DNA from: Marinilabiliaceae bacterium
Lineage (GTDB): Bacteria; Bacteroidota; Bacteroidia; Bacteroidales; Marinilabiliaceae
Direction: 5' to 3'
Assembly (NCBI GenBank): GCA_039811485.1
Contig: JBDHYT010000001.1
Location: 1-28,937 of the forward strand
DNA: 28,937 nt
The notes beneath the pieces were generated by a model. That model was not told where the DNA came from. It did not search any database and saw only the letters and a program-made list of their open reading frames with translations. Made by a program: the position numbers and the translations under genes. Below are positions 1-7,155 of this stretch, piece by piece (positions within the stretch are counted from its first letter, which is position 1; every line of letters begins with the position of its first letter).

Positions 1-682
1 CGGGATCGAACTTCAGTACTATCTCCTCCGGATTGGCCTGCATCGGATGTGTGATGCCGTAGCAATGATTTTAAACTCGGTTCATGTCGAACTCTGTGTC
101 TCTTACAAACTTAATGCCTGTAACCAAAAGATTATGAAGGCGGTCTAAAGCAAAACTCTTAATGATATGGTCTTTTGTGTCGGTGGCCAGCACATACCAG
201 CGGTTGCGAAACTCCTTGAGTCCCAATGGCTCTGCAGTGCGAACCGTCTCTATGCCGTTTCCAAAGCTCCTGTAGCTAAAGGTGATACGCTCCCTGTTTC
301 TGATGGCATCAAGCAGGGTAGCCATATTTTCGGTACCGCGTGGCAGACGCTGCTCAAAATGCAGATAGTCGGAGAGCTTTTCGCCCATATTGAAGGCATT
401 GAGTATGTCGAACGACTCCATTATGCGGCGCGATGCTTCGCTCTGGTTCTCCTCACTTATATAGTAAACCCTGTGCGAATTATCGAAGCGTATGTCGATA
501 TTGTAGAGCTGCCTTATATCGTTCAAATCGCGCTGAAAGGTGCGCTTCGACACCGTGAAGTCGGTACCCTGCACCTCCGAGTTGAGACGGAGATAATCGT
601 AAATCTCACTGAACGACGCCTCCTTTATCCGAAGCTTCCTGATAATATAATCGTATCTCGCTATCGATTCCCTTTTCGACAT
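1..682 (-). pseudogene. HTH-WYL(-WCX) transcriptional regulator, interrupted by an in-frame TAA at 71-73; runs off the left window edge
   Basis: N-terminal wHTH-like segment (SFSEIYDYL...VSKRTFQRDLNDIR) and WYL motif (EPLGLKEFRNRWYVLA...KSFALDRL). After the TAA the same frame stays open to position 1 and reads NHCYGITHPMQANPEEIVLKFDP, which resembles the usual WYL-to-WCX linker. Family call is strong; pseudogene versus sequencing error is unresolved. Confidence 0.75.
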
Positions 683-771
683 ATAACCTAACTTTTTTGC
701 TGTTTGGAGTACAAGATAGTGATTTTTTTTATGTTAGATTAATTGGGGTTTTCTACAAATCTTATCCTCAG

Positions 772-1662
772 TTATCGGGGAGGAGTAAAGTTTATTTCAG
801 TTTTATACTCTGTTTGCGGTTCTTCAAAAAGAAATAATTCTAATTCCCTGTTATTATTGAAACCACCTATTTTTTGTCTGTATGATGCTGATATTTTGGG
901 GTTCTCTATTTCCAATTTGCGGTTTTTGCTTATTATCAAAAATTCCTCTTCCTGGTCAATTCCCAAAAATCTTCTGTTCGTCAGATTAGCAGCTATACCT
1001 GTTGTCGAACTGCCTGTAAAAGGATCTAAAATCCAGGTGTTTGGTTTTGTTGAAGCTAAAATCAGCCTGGTTAGTACAGATAATGGCTTTTGTGTCGGAT
1101 GTTTTCCGCATGATTTTTCCCATGGAGCAATTGCAGGTAATTTCCAAACATCTTTCATTTGTTTATCACCATTAAGTTGCTTCATTAACTCATAATTGAA
1201 GTAATGTGGAACTTTTTCGCTTTTCCTTGCCCATATAATTTGCTCGGTCGAATAGGTAAAATAGCGACACGAAAAATTTGGTGGCGGATTAGTCTTCTCC
1301 CATGTAATGATATTGAGTATTTTGAATCCCAGTTCTGACAAGATTTGGCCTACTGAAAAAATATTGTGCATGGTGCCGCTAATCCAAATTGTAGCGTCTT
1401 CTTTCATTTTGTCACGGACTAATGACAACCATCTTCTGTTAAAAGCATTGATAAATTCAAAACCTTCGGATTTATCCCATTTACCCTTATTAACGCTTAC
1501 AATTTGTCCGCTTTGTATTGAGAGTCCGTTATTTGATAAAAAATAGGGTGGATCTGCAAAAACCATATCAAATTTATGCTCAAACTGTGGCAAAAGCTCC
1601 ATTGTATCTCCTTTTAGAAGATTGAAGTTTTTGTCTGTAGATTTAAAATATGGTGTTATCAT
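772..1662 (-). CDS. Beta-class N6/N4 DNA methyltransferase, DpnA (DpnIIB)-like
   Basis: Catalytic motif IV (VFADPPY) precedes motif I (LDPFTGSSTTG), the beta-class order; KHPTQKP motif; last gene of an operon containing a DpnII-type REase. Confidence 0.92.
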   Translation of the reverse strand: MITPYFKSTDKNFNLLKGDTMELLPQFEHKFDMVFADPPYFLSNNGLSIQSGQIVSVNKGKWDKSEGFEFINAFNRRWLSLVRDKMKEDATIWISGTMHNIFSVGQILSELGFKILNIITWEKTNPPPNFSCRYFTYSTEQIIWARKSEKVPHYFNYELMKQLNGDKQMKDVWKLPAIAPWEKSCGKHPTQKPLSVLTRLILASTKPNTWILDPFTGSSTTGIAANLTNRRFLGIDQEEEFLIISKNRKLEIENPKISASYRQKIGGFNNNRELELFLFEEPQTEYKTEINFTPPR

Positions 1663-1663
1663 T

Positions 1664-2218
1664 TTATCTTCTGTTATGAGTTGCTACATACACGATTTTG
1701 TATATGTCCTTATGTTCTTCAAGTGCTTTTAAAAGATTTCTAAACATATATGCAGTAGATAGATTTGTTTTTTCTTGTATCATTAATAGTTTGGCTATAA
1801 GATAAATAAATTTAATGCTGTACTCTCCTGTATTTGCAAGACCTGGATATTTTGCTGCCTCCTGATTTGCTTCACTTTTTAATAATTCAACATCTAACAA
1901 AGTATTTCTTTCTTCGGCAGATTTTAATGGCTTTATATGATTATCCCATTGATGAATCAAGAAGTTTAGAAACTTCTTTGTTTCACTACTATTTTGACTC
2001 ATTTTTAAAATAGCATCAACAGCCCAGTGAATATGTTTAGGTGTTCTTATTCTTGACCATCCTGATTTACTTGTGCTGTCTTTTTGTCTATACCTCAGCA
2101 ATAAGTCAAAATCTGATAGCTTTCCTTGATATACACCAAGAATGTAAGTGTCGTTAATTTCTATTATTGCCAAAGGTTTCTCCCCTTTGACTATCATGTG
2201 TGGGGATTTTTTCACCAT
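1664..2218 (-). CDS. Hypothetical protein (184 aa) embedded in the R-M operon
   Basis: ATG overlaps the REase stop (ATGGTGA, 7 nt) and the stop lies 1 nt before the MTase ATG. Same AT-rich composition as its neighbours. No domain recognised. Confidence 0.85.
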   Translation of the reverse strand: MVKKSPHMIVKGEKPLAIIEINDTYILGVYQGKLSDFDLLLRYRQKDSTSKSGWSRIRTPKHIHWAVDAILKMSQNSSETKKFLNFLIHQWDNHIKPLKSAEERNTLLDVELLKSEANQEAAKYPGLANTGEYSIKFIYLIAKLLMIQEKTNLSTAYMFRNLLKALEEHKDIYKIVYVATHNRR

Positions 2219-3054
2219 TCGTTTAATACAATTTCATTTTTAACTTTTTCAATAAAAGAACTCAAAGTTGTCAGATTATACATACTTGGAATAATATTGT
2301 ATGCCTCTTCCAATTTATTTTTGGCACTCAACCAACCTTGTCCATCAGTAATCCAGACGAATTCAAATGCTTCGTATTGATTAATTTTAGGTGCTACATC
2401 AGAATATGATCTTGCCGTTTCATTCAGCTTTGAACCACCTGAATTATAAAAGTTAGTTTCGATTAAATATGTTTTAAGTTTTGTTTTAATTACGAAATCA
2501 AATCGTTTCACATCAGCACCTAAGCTTACTATTTCAGGAAATGTTGTATTACTCACTTCCTTTTTATAGAATATTTTGGCTTGGTCAAAGAATTGCGAAA
2601 CTGCTTTTGACATATTTTCGCCGCCTCTGTTTTTTCTTGCATTTGTGTCTAAACCTACTTCAATACCAAAAACATAATCCACCAAATTTGTTATATCTTT
2701 GCTTCTAAAGATTTCTCCCAGACCTGTTTTTTCTATGTACTCATAAATGGTTTCAGTTGAAGAAAAGTAGGCATCAAGTAAAACAATATCACCCTTATTA
2801 TTGAATGTTTTGGCCTCCTTGTTTTTGCGAATTGCAATTAGAATATCCAAAACATCAAATACCTTCGGGTTTTCTTCGTAAAGTTCCTTTATCGCTTCTT
2901 TCAAATTCTCTTTGCCAATCAAATAATTTAATTGATTGAGTTTGATGGCAATTTTATTTACATTGACCTTGACTTTTTTAAAATCTGTAAAATAATCAAG
3001 CGTAGCATTAGTCTCAGAAAGTTGAGATAAAAAGATTTTAAATTGCTCGGACAT
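2212..3054 (-). CDS. DpnII-family type II restriction endonuclease (predicted GATC)
   Basis: GLDTNARKNRGG and KRFDFVI...YLIETNFYNSGGSKLNETARSY (PD-(D/E)xK-type core) and FVWITDGQGW, motifs characteristic of DpnII/MboI-like enzymes; flanked by two MTases. Confidence 0.9.
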   Translation of the reverse strand: MSEQFKIFLSQLSETNATLDYFTDFKKVKVNVNKIAIKLNQLNYLIGKENLKEAIKELYEENPKVFDVLDILIAIRKNKEAKTFNNKGDIVLLDAYFSSTETIYEYIEKTGLGEIFRSKDITNLVDYVFGIEVGLDTNARKNRGGENMSKAVSQFFDQAKIFYKKEVSNTTFPEIVSLGADVKRFDFVIKTKLKTYLIETNFYNSGGSKLNETARSYSDVAPKINQYEAFEFVWITDGQGWLSAKNKLEEAYNIIPSMYNLTTLSSFIEKVKNEIVLNEW

Positions 3055-3967
3055 ACTTTTTATTTTTCACTTGATTTGTGATTAGTAATTCTGTTAATTT
3101 TCCTCTTTTTTCAGGATTTGCATTTATACTGCGTTTTGCTTCAACTCGTTGAATATTAAAGTCGGAATACAAATCATCAAAAAAGTTATCGTTTTCATCT
3201 TTGCCTTTCACGTCAGAATTGCTTAGAATCCAAGTGTGATTTAAAACATCCAATTTGTGGCAAAAATCTTTTAAACGAATTTGTTCGGAGTCGTTAAACT
3301 CGTCTTTTGCATACGAATTAAAGCTTGACGTTTGACTTAATGGCTTATATGGAGGATCGAAATAGAAAAGTGTATTTTGATCTGCGTAGTTTAAGGTTTG
3401 CTCAAAGTCACCACAAAGAATCTCTACTTTCTGCAAAGCATTGCTTACAGCCAGAATATTCTCTTTGTCACAAATAGTTGGTCTTTTATAACTCCCTACA
3501 GGCACATTATATTCGTTTTTTCTATTAACCCTATATAAACCATTGAAGCATGTCCGATTGAGAAATATAAACAAAGCTGCTTGAACGCTTTTTGTCTCTT
3601 TTCTCAAATTGTATAAGTCTCTTTTGTGATAATAGTATAATTTTTTGTTCTCTTCATTTCCTTCTAATGAATGGTATTCGTTTTGATAAACTTCAAGAAT
3701 TGAAATCAATTCTTTAGGATGGGAAGCAATAACTTTGTAAGTGTTTATTAAATCTTCGTTTATATCATTAATAACCGCCCTTTGCAGTTTGGGAAAATTG
3801 TTCAACATCCAAAAAAGCACCGCACCACTTCCTACAAATGGCTCGATGTATGTAAAATTTGTATGCGTTATGCTGTTAGGTAAAACTCGTTCAATCTCTG
3901 TTATGAGTTGTGTTTTGCCACCCGCCCATTTCAAAAATGGCTTTGCTGCTGTCTTGTTTTCAGTCAT
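3038..3967 (-). CDS. Dam/DpnM-like alpha-class N6-adenine DNA methyltransferase (D12 class)
   Basis: KPFLKWAGGKTQL, EPFVGSGAV (motif I), LNRTCFNGLYRVN and YFDPPY (motif IV); stop overlaps the REase start by 17 nt. Confidence 0.93.
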   Translation of the reverse strand: MTENKTAAKPFLKWAGGKTQLITEIERVLPNSITHTNFTYIEPFVGSGAVLFWMLNNFPKLQRAVINDINEDLINTYKVIASHPKELISILEVYQNEYHSLEGNEENKKLYYYHKRDLYNLRKETKSVQAALFIFLNRTCFNGLYRVNRKNEYNVPVGSYKRPTICDKENILAVSNALQKVEILCGDFEQTLNYADQNTLFYFDPPYKPLSQTSSFNSYAKDEFNDSEQIRLKDFCHKLDVLNHTWILSNSDVKGKDENDNFFDDLYSDFNIQRVEAKRSINANPEKRGKLTELLITNQVKNKKYVRAI

Positions 3968-3986
3968 TTCATTCAGTTCAAAGTTT

Positions 3987-3994
3987 CAAAATTA
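3987..3994 (-). promoter_or_regulatory. Candidate Bacteroidota -7 promoter box for the R-M operon
   Basis: TAATTTTG on the minus strand (TAnnTTTG consensus), 20 nt upstream of the MTase ATG; no clear -33 element; AT-rich context lowers specificity. Confidence 0.4.
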
Positions 3995-4188
3995 CAATTA
4001 AATTTCGGATTGCAGATTCACTATTCCCGAATCTCTTTCGGTAAAATTGATCTCCCTCACTTTTATCCATTGCTATCCGAAGTATATGTCAATGAGTGCA
4101 TTAAGTCTCATTATTAGCATAATGCACTGTCACTTCGTTTCAATGCAGTGTGTATTTTCTTTAAGGCAAAAATATTGATAAGGATAAT

Positions 4189-5352
4189 TCACCTATTTTT
4201 TCCCGGCAGCACCACTCTTATGGTCGTTCCTTTGCCCGGTTCACTCTCTTTTACAAATATTTTTCCCTTATGATATTCGCCTATAATACGCTTTGTCAAT
4301 GTAAGACCTAAGCCCCAGCCTCTTTTTTTGGTTGTGAAGCCTGCATCAAATATATGGCGTATCTGGTTGCGTCTCATCCCTTTGCCGTTGTCTGTGATGT
4401 CGATTACAGCCTTGTCCTGCTCGCGGTGAAGATAAATACCAACCCTTCCTTCGCCATTTATTGCATCAAGGGCATTTTTTATCACATTTTCCAAAGCCCA
4501 TTCAAACAAAATAGGATTTATGCTGGCAGTAATCGAAGCGTCACTCTGGGGGTAGATGGCAATATTTACCTTTCCCGATTGACGGCGCGACAGATAGAGT
4601 GTGAGGTTTTCAATAAGCGGAAAGAGCTCCATTGGCTGCCTGTCGGGCTTGGAGCCGATCTTCGAAAACCGGTCGGCCACATTCTGAAGCCGTGCCAGAT
4701 CTTTGCCCATCTCGGCAGTAGTCTCAGGAGCCAGACCCTTCATCTTCAGGTAGTCAACCCAACCCATGAGCGACGATGTTGGGGTGCCAAGCTGGTGTGC
4801 CGTCTCTTTTGCCATTCCTGCCCATACCCTGTTCTGCTCGGCACGCCTCGACCCGCTGAAAACAGTATAGGCAAGAATGATAAATAGTGCCACCAGGCCA
4901 AGCTGTACGTAGGGGAAACGCGACAACTGCTGTATTACCGATGAGTCGTAGTAGTAGAGATACTGTTTGTCGTTTTCGTCAAGCACAATCTCAATCCGTG
5001 TCCCTTTGGATAACATCTTCTGATATTGGCGTTTAAGAAGAAGTGAATCGACATTGTCGTTTTCGGTAATATTGCGGTGGAAGAGTATATTGCCAACACT
5101 GTCGCACAGTATCACCGGGATGGTGGTGTTTTGCGATATTACATCCAGCACTAAGTTAATCGCCCCCTCTTCCGACGATTCGGGCGAGGCGAGAACCCTG
5201 GTAGCCTCACTCCACAGCTGCATCCGCTTGTACTCCTCATCTTTGAGCTTGTTGGCCAGACTGTTGCTGTAGAACAGGATGAATGCTCCAATCCCCATAG
5301 CCATCAGAAATAGAAGCAGCTTAAATAGTTGCTTTCGCTTGTATGAATCCAT
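4189..5352 (-). CDS. Membrane sensor histidine kinase (HisKA + HATPase_c), orphan
   Basis: Two hydrophobic segments, H-box MAKETAHQLGTP, N-box NVIKNALDA, G1 DNGKGM, F/G2 FDAGFTTKKRGWGLGL; no response regulator in the window. Confidence 0.93.
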   Translation of the reverse strand: MDSYKRKQLFKLLLFLMAMGIGAFILFYSNSLANKLKDEEYKRMQLWSEATRVLASPESSEEGAINLVLDVISQNTTIPVILCDSVGNILFHRNITENDNVDSLLLKRQYQKMLSKGTRIEIVLDENDKQYLYYYDSSVIQQLSRFPYVQLGLVALFIILAYTVFSGSRRAEQNRVWAGMAKETAHQLGTPTSSLMGWVDYLKMKGLAPETTAEMGKDLARLQNVADRFSKIGSKPDRQPMELFPLIENLTLYLSRRQSGKVNIAIYPQSDASITASINPILFEWALENVIKNALDAINGEGRVGIYLHREQDKAVIDITDNGKGMRRNQIRHIFDAGFTTKKRGWGLGLTLTKRIIGEYHKGKIFVKESEPGKGTTIRVVLPGKNR

Positions 5353-5571: not shown

Positions 5572-7155
5572 ATGAGAAGAGAGTATGATTTTCTTGTGAT
5601 TGGCTCTGGTGCTGCCGGGCTTAGCTTTGCCCTTAAAGTGGCTGCCTATGGCCGCGTGGCTCTTGTTACCAAAGATGCAATCGACAACACAAATACCTGC
5701 TATGCGCAAGGTGGTATAGCTGCAGTGACATCGCAGTTGGATAATTTTGAAAAACATATAAAAGATACCCTTATCGCCGGTGACGGTTTGTGTGACCCGG
5801 ATGTTGCCCGGATGGTGATTGTTAATGCACCAAGCCAGATACAGCAACTGATAGAGTGGGGGACTGAGTTCGATAGAAATAACGAAGGGAGCTACGACCT
5901 GCACCGCGAAGGAGGACACTCGGAGCACCGCATTCTTCACCACCGCGACAATACTGGCTTTGAGATTCAGCGTGCATTGGTGTCGCAGATTCGCAACCAT
6001 GCAAATATCGATATCTACGAGCAGCATTTTGCAATCGACATAATAACCCAGCACCACTTAGGCCGTGCCAACGAGCCCTGGATGACTGATACCGAGTGCT
6101 ATGGCGCATATATCCTTGATGAAAAAAATAACCGTGTCGATACTTTTCTATCAAAAATAACAATGATTGCCACAGGCGGAATAGGGGACGTTTATCAGAC
6201 TACAACCAACCCAACCATTGCCACAGGCGACGGTATAGCCATGGTTTTCAGGGCAAAGGGCGTAATTCAGAATATGGAGTTTGTTCAGTTTCACCCCACT
6301 TCACTCTATAACCCTAAGGAGACGCCATCATTCCTGATTACTGAGGCGATGCGGGGGTACGGTGCCATTCTCCGTACCGCCAAAGGCAAAGAGTTTATGC
6401 ACAAGTACGACAAGCGTGGCTGCCTGGCACCGCGCGACGTGGTGGCACGTGCCATCGACAACGAACTTAAAGGAAGTGGCGATGAGTTTGTCTATCTCGA
6501 TGTGCGCCATAAACCCGCCGAAGAGACAAAACAGCACTTCCCGACAATATACCACAAATGCCTGTCGGTAGGTATAGATATCACCAAAGAGATGATTCCG
6601 GTAGTGCCGGCAGCCCACTATCTTTGTGGAGGCATCAAAGTTGACATTAACGGCCGCAGCTCCATCAACAGACTATACGCAGCCGGCGAGTGCAGTTGTA
6701 CCGGACTTCATGGTGCCAACCGATTGGCCTCCAACTCGTTGCTCGAAGCATTGGTATATGCCGATGTAGCCGCAAAAGACTCATCCCAATATGTTAATAA
6801 TATCAGTTTTAACCATCTTATTCCTGACTGGAACGATGAAGGCACAACCCACAACGAAGAGATGATTCTCATCACTCAGGCCAACAAGGAGGTGGAAACC
6901 ATCATGAGCAATTATGTGGGCATAGTTCGTTCCAATCTGCGGTTAAAACGTGCACTCGACCGCCTCGAAATTATATACCACGAGACTGAAAATCTTTATC
7001 AGCGTTCTACGGTGTCGAAAAAACTGTGCGAGCTGCGCAATAAAATCAACGTGGGTTACCTCATTATCAAGATGGCACAAAAAAGAAAGGAGAGCCGTGG
7101 ATTGCACTACACCCTCGACTATCCCGGCAAAAATGAGTTCCTGACTCTGTCGTAA
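5572..7155 (+). CDS. nadB: L-aspartate oxidase
   Basis: FAD-binding GSGAAG, NTCYAQGGIAA, EGGHS, QFHPT, HYLCGG and GLHGANRLASNSL; 527 aa. Confidence 0.96.
   Translation: MRREYDFLVIGSGAAGLSFALKVAAYGRVALVTKDAIDNTNTCYAQGGIAAVTSQLDNFEKHIKDTLIAGDGLCDPDVARMVIVNAPSQIQQLIEWGTEFDRNNEGSYDLHREGGHSEHRILHHRDNTGFEIQRALVSQIRNHANIDIYEQHFAIDIITQHHLGRANEPWMTDTECYGAYILDEKNNRVDTFLSKITMIATGGIGDVYQTTTNPTIATGDGIAMVFRAKGVIQNMEFVQFHPTSLYNPKETPSFLITEAMRGYGAILRTAKGKEFMHKYDKRGCLAPRDVVARAIDNELKGSGDEFVYLDVRHKPAEETKQHFPTIYHKCLSVGIDITKEMIPVVPAAHYLCGGIKVDINGRSSINRLYAAGECSCTGLHGANRLASNSLLEALVYADVAAKDSSQYVNNISFNHLIPDWNDEGTTHNEEMILITQANKEVETIMSNYVGIVRSNLRLKRALDRLEIIYHETENLYQRSTVSKKLCELRNKINVGYLIIKMAQKRKESRGLHYTLDYPGKNEFLTLS

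What the first reader, a model, noticed from the sequence alone, without database searches (positions are those of the whole stretch)
1664..2218. Unrecognised fourth gene locked inside a DpnII-like restriction-modification operon
Seen: a 184-aa ORF sits between the REase and the DpnA-like MTase, overlapping the REase stop by 7 nt and ending 1 nt before the MTase start, with the same AT-rich composition. I see no MTase, HTH or clear nuclease motif and no TM helix. Distinctive segments are SRIRTPKHIHWAVD (HxH plus Trp/Asp), GEYSIKF and QEKTN..AYMF. Established: the Streptococcus pneumoniae DpnII locus has three genes (dpnM, dpnA, dpnB), and C-protein controllers are short HTH proteins, which this is not. 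Inference: a dedicated accessory component of a four-gene GATC defence system, e.g. a second effector or back-up, an REase modulator, or a metal-binding enzyme. This is the best candidate for an undescribed system in the window.
Basis: partly seen in the sequence, partly recalled or inferred. Interest (0 to 1): 0.75.

Follow-up and report, generated by a model that had tools for sequence, protein, structure and literature searches.

The report
Unknown-fold gene tied to GATC methylases
The extra gene in this restriction-modification operon is a real member of a large unnamed protein family with no recognisable fold; it nearly always sits beside GATC-type DNA adenine methylases, whichever restriction enzyme is present or none, so it is probably an undescribed DNA-acting partner of GATC methylation.

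Summary
A 184-aa ORF (177 aa from the internal ATG) lies at 1664-2218(-). It is tightly packed between a DpnII-family nuclease and a DpnA-like methylase, inside a 3.4-kb AT-rich island.

It belongs to a large family: about 900 clusters at 90% identity and 220 at 50%. The family has no Pfam, NCBIfam, PADLOC or PHROG match. The AlphaFold model is very confident (pLDDT 94), and no structure library matches it.

In 86 related loci from more than ten phyla, 85 have an N6-adenine methylase next to it, either Dam-type or DpnA-type. The nuclease varies: DpnII-type, MutH/Sau3AI-type, a third unnamed type, or none in at least 11 full-length loci. A near-identical operon lacks the gene.

So it is not a dedicated DpnII subunit. 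It is an optional module tied to GATC methylation.

My best guess, at about 0.4, is a methylation-checked DNA-cutting or nicking effector that acts as a dimer. This rests on four things:
- two-gene methylase pairs;
- 15 signature residues kept where no nuclease is present;
- an adaptor domain fused either to this protein or to a PD-(D/E)xK domain;
- a tandem form that may be a pseudo-dimer.

Nothing shows catalysis. This scan has noted the same family on other DNA (e1-2048461, e1-4704878).

The parts
3038..3967 (-). Dam-type (alpha-class, D12) N6-adenine DNA methyltransferase, first gene of the operon
   Evidence: PF02086 E 1.4e-67; TIGR00571 dam E 1.6e-89; PADLOC MTase_II E 1.1e-96
2212..3054 (-). 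DpnII/MboI-family type II restriction endonuclease; overlaps the methylase gene by 17 nt
   Evidence: PF04556 E 2.5e-96 covering 1-277 of 278 profile positions; PADLOC REase_II E 1e-88
1664..2218 (-). The finding: 184-aa protein (177 aa if started at the ATG at 2197) of an unannotated family. Three N-terminal strands plus a six-helix bundle. Signature residues G32 D38 Y43 R58 P60 H62 H64 W65 D68 K72 G131 Y133 E149 K150 N152.
   Evidence: 872 homologous clusters, all named 'hypothetical' where named. Model pLDDT 94.1. No family or fold match. Conservation.
772..1662 (-). DpnA/MboC-like (beta-class, N6_N4) DNA methyltransferase; starts 1 nt after the stop of the unknown gene
   Evidence: PF01555 E 1.5e-56; PADLOC MTase_II E 3.9e-94
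700..4100 (.). AT-rich island (about 29-35% G+C, flanks 48-52%) holding exactly the four genes; no terminator-like site inside
   Evidence: Composition profile; terminator scan found none

Best explanation
SHOWN. The ORF encodes a folded, basic protein (pI 9.6) of a widespread, unnamed family whose predicted fold matches nothing solved or named. It is an optional, horizontally mobile gene whose one constant neighbour is a GATC-type N6-adenine DNA methyltransferase. Here it is co-transcribed, and probably translationally coupled, between the DpnII-type nuclease and the second methylase of an MboI-like M-R-M operon.

INFERRED, my commitment. It is a DNA-acting effector that the neighbouring methylase keeps harmless to the host. 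In other words it is a second, methylation-sensitive restriction-like nuclease or nickase, built on a new fold.
- Proposed active site: the conserved cluster at the sheet-helix junction (D38, R58, H62, H64, D68, K72, E149), holding a metal ion.
- Proposed working form: a dimer on the palindromic site.
- Proposed role: in the four-gene operon it would add a second cutter to DpnII. In the two-gene modules it would be the only one.
For: (1) Linkage. 85 of 86 loci carry a Dam-type or N6_N4 methylase next to it, including members only about 30% identical.

(2) Independence from the nuclease. Neighbours are DpnII-type, MutH/Sau3AI-type (PF02976), a third weakly PD-(D/E)xK-like protein, or none. On the family tree the nuclease context changes at least 12 times.

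(3) Self-contained methylase-plus-this-gene pairs. They lie between housekeeping genes (L046, L075, L080, L057, L072), or sit convergent with a Dam gene on an integrative element (L107). That is the layout of a minimal restriction-modification pair.

(4) Selection without a nuclease. All 15 signature residues are intact in every nuclease-less locus, and in 85 of 87 sequences overall. L018, L027 and L035 lie inside DpnII clades and lack DpnII but keep this gene.

(5) Chemistry. The invariant residues are acidic, His and Lys, as in metal-dependent hydrolases. The family's median pI is 9.1.

(6) Domain swapping.
- An 86-aa repeat domain stands alone in this slot in L094.
- It is a separate gene just upstream of this gene in L054 and L076.
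- It is fused to this protein in the 280-aa subfamily (P0128, P0134, P0142, P0159).
- It is fused to a NOV_C/DUF3883 domain in L001/L022.
DUF3883 was assigned to the PD-(D/E)xK nuclease superfamily in PMC3424549.

(7) Operon side. In L099-L102 the gene sits in the nuclease-side operon (MutH-like, DUF7004, this protein), divergent from the two methylases.

(8) Tandem form. The 336-aa form models confidently (pLDDT 91.4, pTM 0.88). Both halves have the same order of three strands and about six helices. This is consistent with a pseudo-dimer.
Against: - The PADLOC restriction-enzyme models do not hit it.
- In most sampled loci it accompanies an intact DpnII-type enzyme for the same site, which looks redundant.
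- It is dispensable, because a near-identical operon lacks it.
- Invariant polar residues could read the GATC site instead of catalysing anything.
- The two halves of the 336-aa form share no detectable sequence similarity (hhalign probability 0.5%).
- The single Dam fusion (P0226) rests on one 2.7-kb contig and could be an assembly artefact.
- Some 'nuclease-less' loci may hold a nuclease that I could not recognise.
Confidence: 0.4

Rival explanations
1. It is a non-catalytic DNA-binding factor that reads GATC or its methylation state. It would resemble SeqA in role, or act as a regulator that times expression of the methylase or nuclease. The invariant polar residues would contact bases rather than catalyse.
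For: - Strict linkage to GATC methylases of several classes fits a shared DNA site better than a shared protein partner.
- The protein is basic.
- A family that always reads the same site would keep its recognition residues invariant.
- Methylase-only pairs recall the dam-seqA pairing, which is established knowledge for E. coli.
Against: - No HTH or other DNA-binding family or fold was found, and SeqA is not among the fold matches.
- Three invariant acidic residues are unusual for a DNA-binding surface.
- It lies downstream of the nuclease, not upstream as controller genes do.
- It shares an adaptor domain with a PD-(D/E)xK-type domain.
Confidence: 0.2
2. It is a maintenance or repair enzyme serving the methylase. 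The analogy is Vsr beside Dcm-type cytosine methylases. It would deal with a lesion, a nick or a by-product created at, or because of, adenine methylation at GATC. Alternatively, the second methylase might need it for activity.
For: - The linkage pattern is the Vsr pattern (Vsr-Dcm overlap is established knowledge). The gene is tied to the methylase, is independent of the nuclease, is optional, and is tightly coupled to the methylase start. Here the gap is 1 nt, and the stop and start overlap in L028, L030, L031, L032 and L041.
- In PMC5608340 a second GATC-assigned methylase of Prevotella intermedia 17F gave no protection when cloned alone, and an unannotated 867-bp gap separates the two methylase genes. 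This is a lead only. I could not check whether that gap holds this gene.
Against: - No lesion specific to N6-methyladenine at GATC is known to need dedicated repair.
- The partner methylases belong to at least two classes and several subtypes, so a direct helper role is unlikely.
- No similarity to Vsr, glycosylases or AlkB-type enzymes was found.
Confidence: 0.13
3. It is a latent back-up toxin (abortive-infection effector) riding in restriction-modification operons, released when a phage disables the primary system. The model is PrrC with EcoprrI.
For: - The slot between nuclease and second methylase is a hot spot for varied cargo. Examples are DndB plus a NOV_C protein, DUF7004, small ParB-like proteins and YaaC.
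- Several loci lie in defence islands with WYL regulators and type IV enzymes.
Against: - It persists with a methylase alone, between housekeeping genes, where there is nothing to guard.
- It has no HEPN or other toxin fold or family match.
- It has no partner antitoxin-like gene that is constant across loci.
Confidence: 0.1
4. One reading: it is a dedicated subunit or modulator of the DpnII-type nuclease.
For: In the window it overlaps the nuclease stop. It follows a DpnII-type gene in 54 of the 86 related loci (55 of 87 counting the window).
Against: - It occurs with two other nuclease types, and with none in at least 11 full-length loci.
- Its signature residues are unchanged there.
- DpnII operons without it exist. 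Three of the four DpnII-bearing genomes in a 401-genome sample lack it, including a close sister operon.
Confidence: 0.05

Closest known systems
MboI / DpnII / LlaDCHI-type GATC restriction-modification operons (Dam-class methylase, DpnII-family nuclease, DpnA/MboC-class second methylase)
   Same: Three of the four genes match these families at full length. Their order (methylase, nuclease, methylase) is that of MboI as I recall it. The whole unit is an AT-rich mobile island.
   Different: The described systems have three genes. Here a fourth gene of an unknown family sits between the nuclease and the second methylase. The same gene also travels with other nuclease families, or with none.
SsuDAT1I of Streptococcus suis (four-gene GATC system with two methylases and two isoschizomeric nucleases; from memory, not checked here)
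   Same: It is a precedent for a GATC operon with two methylases and two nucleases. That is what this operon would be if my best explanation holds.
   Different: As I recall, both SsuDAT1I nucleases are DpnII homologues. The extra protein here has no similarity to DpnII or to any known nuclease.
Vsr endonuclease next to Dcm-type cytosine methylases
   Same: The linkage logic is the same. Each is a small optional enzyme tied to the methylase rather than the nuclease, tightly coupled to it, and found both in full systems and beside orphan methylases.
   Different: There is no sequence or fold similarity. The partners here are adenine methylases, and no matching lesion is known.
Controller (C) proteins of type II systems
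   Same: Both are small extra genes inside restriction-modification operons.
   Different: C proteins are helix-turn-helix proteins of about 80-100 aa placed ahead of the nuclease gene. This protein is 177-184 aa, has no HTH hit, lies after the nuclease, and persists without one. Several relatives carry a separate XRE-type HTH gene as well.
Sau3AI-type pseudo-dimeric nucleases (an active MutH-like domain plus a degenerate copy; established knowledge)
   Same: The 336-aa subfamily models as two packed halves with the same order of secondary-structure elements. Only the C-terminal half keeps the signature residues.
   Different: The fold is different. Duplication is inferred from topology only, with no sequence signal.

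Membership tests
DpnII/MboI-type GATC restriction-modification operon (the locus as a whole) | DpnII-family nuclease (PF04556) | tested here: met
   E 2.5e-96, full profile
DpnII/MboI-type GATC restriction-modification operon (the locus as a whole) | Dam-class (D12) methylase plus a second beta-class N6_N4 methylase in one operon | tested here: met
   PF02086 E 1.4e-67 and PF01555 E 1.5e-56; genes overlap or are 1 nt apart
DpnII/MboI-type GATC restriction-modification operon (the locus as a whole) | Recognition and methylation of GATC | not testable with these tools
   Inferred from homology only; needs a methylome or a digest
Controller (C) protein | Helix-turn-helix DNA-binding domain in a protein of about 80-100 aa | tested here: not met
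   No HTH family hit for the protein or for any of 72 relatives; length is 177-184 aa
Controller (C) protein | Gene placed upstream of, and regulating, the nuclease gene | tested here: not met
   It lies downstream of the nuclease here and in most loci, and occurs without any nuclease
Known restriction-nuclease folds (PD-(D/E)xK, HNH, GIY-YIG, PLD, half-pipe) | Sequence-profile or structural match to one of these folds | tested here: inconclusive
HEPN RNases | Rx4-6H motif at the start of the last core helix of a four-helix bundle | tested here: inconclusive
   The invariant pair is R58-x3-H62. R58-x5-H64 fits the spacing, but H64 is kept in only 64 of 72 and lies before the first helix. No HEPN structure is among the fold matches
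HUH endonucleases | His-hydrophobic-His on a strand of a five-stranded sheet, plus a catalytic Tyr on a helix | tested here: inconclusive
   H62-I63-H64 and conserved Y43/Y133 exist. The motif sits at a helix start in a three-stranded protein. No HUH structure matched
SeqA (binder of hemimethylated GATC) | SeqA C-terminal DNA-binding domain | tested here: inconclusive
   No Pfam hit; SeqA is not among the fold matches
Vsr | Vsr endonuclease domain beside a cytosine-5 methylase | tested here: not met
   No Vsr family hit; the neighbouring methylases are adenine-type

The most novel reading that the evidence does not exclude
The protein founds a new structural class of methylation-sensitive GATC endonuclease or nickase, built as a three-stranded sheet plus a six-helix bundle with a His/Asp/Lys/Glu centre. 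With a single adenine methylase it would form a previously unrecognised two-gene restriction-modification system. Many 'orphan' GATC methylases in Aquificota, Patescibacteria, Elusimicrobiota and Bacteroidota would then not be orphans.
Probability: 0.3. Interest if true: 0.8.

Novelty: new variant of a known kind. Interest (0 to 1): 0.6.

Why it matters
GATC systems (DpnII, MboI, Sau3AI, Dam) are among the best-studied restriction-modification systems and are everyday laboratory tools. Even so, a family of several hundred sequence clusters, with a confident but unmatched fold, travels almost exclusively with their methylases and carries no name in Pfam, NCBIfam, PADLOC or PHROGs.

If it is a nuclease, three things follow:
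- it adds a new catalytic fold to the restriction enzymes;
- it reclassifies many 'orphan' adenine methylases as two-gene systems;
- it may yield a new GATC-directed reagent, for example one specific for single strands or for nicking.

If it is instead a reader of methylation state or a methylase-linked repair enzyme, it would be an adenine-side counterpart of SeqA or Vsr outside the Gammaproteobacteria.

Either way the question can be tested directly, using four small genes and standard E. coli dam-minus hosts.

Tried and rejected
FAMILY AND FOLD SEARCHES THAT FOUND NOTHING
- Pfam, NCBIfam, PADLOC and PHROGs on the protein gave nothing.
- Pfam at E <= 5 on all 72 aligned members gave only scattered single hits.
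- A profile search against PDB sequences gave 0 hits at E <= 10.
- The ESM Atlas feature search gave no usable hit.
- Fold searches of the 184-aa model:
  - Foldseek against PDB, best E 0.14;
  - AlphaFold DB clusters, only unnamed relatives plus one 'DUF2299' entry at E 7e-3;
  - Swiss-Prot models, nothing;
  - BFVD, nothing;
  - ESM Atlas by shape, TM <= 0.37.

OTHER SEARCHES
- tblastn against phage and plasmid collections gave no match.
- The search for related loci with the alignment failed for lack of a conserved stretch; it worked with the single protein.
- A homologue search with the N-terminal 172 residues of P0137 found only P0137 itself.
- A literature search for DUF7004 returned one unrelated paper.

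TESTS WITHOUT A RESULT
- hhalign of the N-terminal half of the 336-aa form against the family profile gave probability 0.5%. The duplication idea therefore rests on topology alone.
- The homodimer prediction gave no verdict. The engine could not fold the chain without an alignment (pLDDT 47, score 0.00). It counts neither for nor against pairing.

IDEAS CONSIDERED AND SET ASIDE
- HEPN: the motif spacing and position do not fit.
- HUH endonuclease: the motif is present but in the wrong structural setting.
- Tyrosine-recombinase-like R/K/H/W/Y set: no fold support.
- AlkD-like glycosylase with a Trp/Asp centre: no fold match.
- The unknown 174-aa and 167-aa genes in the same slot in L003 and L001 as paralogues of this gene: no similarity.
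- WYL as a conserved partner: none of loci L008-L087 has a relative of the window's WYL gene.

Full report
1. OBSERVATION

The minus strand of 772-3967 carries four tightly packed genes:
- a Dam-family methylase at 3038-3967 (PF02086 E 1.4e-67; TIGR00571 E 1.6e-89);
- a DpnII-family nuclease at 2212-3054 (PF04556 E 2.5e-96, full profile);
- the unknown ORF at 1664-2218;
- an N6_N4 (DpnA/MboC-like) methylase at 772-1662 (PF01555 E 1.5e-56).

The 7-nt overlap with the nuclease stop and the 1-nt gap before the methylase start are as reported. The four genes fill an island of about 29-35% G+C between flanks of 48-52%. No terminator-like site lies inside it.

The start is ambiguous. The gene on record for this contig begins at the ATG at 2197 (177 aa, P0001). 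That Met aligns with the start of most relatives. The closest relatives also keep the seven extra residues.

2. THE PROTEIN IS REAL AND UNNAMED

It has 872 homologous clusters at 90% identity, 944 with a profile. There are 220 representatives at 50% identity. Every name that any source gives is 'hypothetical protein'.

It has no hit in Pfam, NCBIfam, PADLOC or PHROGs. None of 72 diverse members gives a consistent Pfam hit.

The 72-sequence alignment (A1) shows a sharp signature:
- G32, D38, Y43;
- R58-x-P60-x-H62-x-H64-W65-x-x-D68-x-x-x-K72;
- G131-E-Y133;
- Q148-E149-K150-T-N152.
The protein is basic, with pI 9.6 and a family median of 9.1.

3. FOLD

AlphaFold2 with this alignment gives pLDDT 94.1 and pTM 0.89. 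The model has three N-terminal strands (17-46) followed by six helices (62-180). The RxPxHxHW motif opens the first, long helix.

No library recognises the fold.
- Foldseek against PDB: best E 0.14.
- AlphaFold DB clusters: only unnamed relatives.
- Swiss-Prot models, BFVD and the ESM Atlas: nothing.
These absences do not prove that the fold is new. They do mean that no function can be borrowed from a known structure.

4. GENOMIC CONTEXT, THE MAIN RESULT

I examined 86 loci. Six came from exact-protein look-ups and 80 from a scan of one genome per species.

Hosts span Bacteroidota, Spirochaetota, Aquificota, Patescibacteria lineages, Elusimicrobiota, Ignavibacteriota, Chloroflexota, Pseudomonadota, Bacillota and a Woesearchaeota bin.

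I classified neighbours by tblastn, with Pfam checks.
- 85 of 86 loci have an N6-adenine methylase beside the gene, either Dam-type D12 or one of several N6_N4 subtypes. The exception, L082, is a 3.6-kb contig.
- 54 loci have a DpnII-family gene, mostly in the order Dam, DpnII, this gene, N6_N4. Some have this gene last.
- 5 loci have a single-domain MutH/Sau3AI-like nuclease instead (PF02976).
- 4 loci have a different 290-aa protein with only a faint PD-(D/E)xK signal.
- 11 loci on long contigs, plus some of the 12 on short contigs, show no nuclease at all.

In several nuclease-less loci the methylase and this gene form a clean two-gene insert between housekeeping genes:
- L046, after an HhH-GPD glycosylase gene and before phosphofructokinase;
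- L075, between a radical SAM gene and DUF1284;
- L080, followed by ACT and DUF711 genes;
- L057, between a glutamine amidotransferase gene and an NlpC/P60 gene;
- L072, after an AIR-synthase-like gene.

Members only about 30% identical keep the association. In L107 the gene is convergent with a Dam gene on an integrative element. L108 has an HTH-Dam fusion, N6_N4, this gene, DpnII and another N6_N4.

5. THE GENE IS OPTIONAL AND MOBILE

In 400 other genomes sampled across the phylum the family was not found. DpnII was found in three.

One of them, L094, is a sister operon. Its flanking genes are 79-82% identical in nucleotides (82-88% in protein) to the window's. It carries an unrelated 86-aa gene exactly where this gene sits.

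On a maximum-likelihood tree of the family, the nuclease context changes at least 12 times. Nuclease-less rows appear inside DpnII clades (L018, L027, L035), and they dominate a diverse non-Bacteroidota clade.

All 15 signature residues are intact in every nuclease-less locus, and in 85 of 87 sequences overall.

The protein therefore does not depend on the DpnII-type enzyme. Its constant companion is GATC-type adenine methylation. The partner methylases belong to different classes, so a shared DNA substrate explains the link better than a shared protein contact.

6. FUSIONS AND NEIGHBOURS THAT BEAR ON FUNCTION

(a) The 86-aa repeat protein of L094.
- It is a separate gene just upstream of this gene in L054 and L076.
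- It forms the N-terminus of the roughly 280-aa subfamily (P0128, P0134, P0142, P0159; BLASTP E 4e-9 to P0128).
- It forms the N-terminal ~150 residues of a NOV_C/DUF3883 protein in L001/L022.
- DUF3883 was assigned to the PD-(D/E)xK nuclease superfamily by Steczkiewicz et al. 2012 (PMC3424549).
The same adaptor is thus joined either to a nuclease-fold domain or to this protein, in the same operon slot. That suggests the two are equivalent effector modules.

(b) The roughly 336-aa subfamily (P0127, P0129, P0133, P0137, P0139).
- It models at pLDDT 91.4 and pTM 0.88.
- Its N-terminal half has the same order of three strands and about six helices as the C-terminal half, but lacks the signature residues.
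- This looks like a degenerate tandem copy, that is, a pseudo-dimer.
- There is no sequence signal for it, and I could not superpose the halves.

(c) In L099-L102 that form lies in the operon 'MutH-like, DUF7004, this protein, 200-aa unknown'. The operon is divergent from the two methylases and sits inside a defence island with a type IV-like SRA-HNH gene and a WYL regulator.

(d) One 462-aa protein (P0226) joins a Dam domain to this domain. It rests on a single 2.7-kb contig.

7. INTERPRETATION

Shown: the gene is real, conserved and optional. It travels with GATC-type methylases independently of the nuclease, and its fold is unmatched.

Inferred: I favour a DNA-acting effector kept harmless by the methylase, that is, a second restriction-like nuclease or nickase (about 0.4). 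The reasons are:
- methylase-plus-this-gene pairs have the anatomy and patchy distribution of minimal restriction-modification systems;
- the invariant residues are of the catalytic kind;
- the adaptor swap equates the protein with a nuclease-fold domain;
- it can sit on the nuclease side of divergent operons;
- the tandem form hints at dimeric action on a palindrome.

Against this reading:
- no nuclease fold or motif was recognised;
- it looks redundant with DpnII in most sampled operons;
- recognition residues would be conserved just as strongly as catalytic ones.

Rivals:
- a non-catalytic reader of GATC or its methylation state (0.2);
- a Vsr-like maintenance enzyme or methylase helper (0.13);
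- a latent back-up toxin (0.1);
- a dedicated DpnII modulator (0.05), which the distribution largely refutes.

A lead for the helper idea comes from Prevotella intermedia 17F (PMC5608340). A second GATC-assigned methylase gave no protection when cloned alone, and 867 unannotated bases separate the two methylase genes. I could not check whether a family member lies there.

8. COMPARISON AND NOVELTY

The locus is a member of the DpnII/MboI class of GATC systems, and three genes meet the family definitions. The fourth gene belongs to no described family.
- It is not a C protein: it has no HTH, and its size and position are wrong.
- It shares only linkage logic with Vsr.
- It would parallel the two-nuclease SsuDAT1I system only if it proves to be a nuclease.

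I rate the locus a new variant of a known kind.

The same family was noted earlier in this scan on other DNA.
- e1-2048461 reached the same 'optional cassette that travels with GATC methylase operons, no recognisable fold' reading.
- e1-4704878 is an unchecked first-reader note of a 184-aa extra gene in a DpnII cassette.

- the sister operon lacking the gene;
- the adaptor-domain swap with a PD-(D/E)xK domain;
- the pseudo-dimer form;
- retention of the signature residues in nuclease-less loci;
- the family tree.

Noticed in passing
L094:1197-1457 (-); also L054:7676-7933, L076:3102-3359, L095 about 1075-1452, N-terminus of L001:4286-5110: An 86-aa protein with two 'RHKCAxCAxExGY'-like repeats and no Pfam match. 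It occupies the slot between the DpnII-type gene and the second methylase. It occurs free-standing, fused to the unknown protein, or fused to a NOV_C (PD-(D/E)xK-type) domain.
   Followed up: partly
L018:8518-9042, L050, L099:5318-5983: DUF7004 (PF22539, E 5e-65 in L018) is another recurrent unknown gene in these GATC methylase operons, next to the unknown protein.
   Followed up: no
L058:8949-9821; similar genes in L025, L029, L082:125-649, L097: A 290-aa protein, truncated to 174 aa in L082, with only a faint PDDEXK_11 signal. It recurs in GATC-type methylase operons where no DpnII or MutH-like gene is seen, and may be a third nuclease family for these systems.
   Followed up: partly
L084:7551-7868, L051:4455-4781: Small proteins of 105-108 aa with a 'DGQHR' ParB/sulfiredoxin-like motif sit just upstream of the unknown gene in MutH-type operons.
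   Followed up: no
L002:6562-7103; L011, L012, L021, L036, L038 between the unknown gene and the N6_N4 methylase: A divergent pair is inserted ahead of the second methylase: a 70-aa XRE-type HTH on the opposite strand and a conserved 84-aa protein of unknown function ('...VEIDPT...VLVRW.D..EGFND...'). It may be a controller module for that methylase.
   Followed up: no
window 71-682 (-): A 203-aa WYL-domain protein (PF13280 E 3.6e-16) lies just beyond the island, in normal-G+C DNA. WYL regulators also lie near the 336-aa fusion forms (L098, L099). No relative of the window's WYL gene was found beside the family in loci L008-L087.
   Followed up: partly
L103-L106: One distant subfamily (P0207) translates only with TGA read as Trp, so the family also occurs in organisms with a recoded stop codon.
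   Followed up: no
L001:3119-5110: In Flavobacterium buctense a DndB-like gene (PF14072) and a NOV_C-domain gene are inserted between the DpnII-type nuclease and the second methylase of the same operon.
   Followed up: partly
window 4189-5352 (-) and 5572-7155 (+): The genes flanking the island on the far side look, from their translations alone, like a sensor histidine kinase and an FAD-dependent oxidase of the L-aspartate oxidase / succinate dehydrogenase flavoprotein type. They were not checked against family libraries.
   Followed up: no
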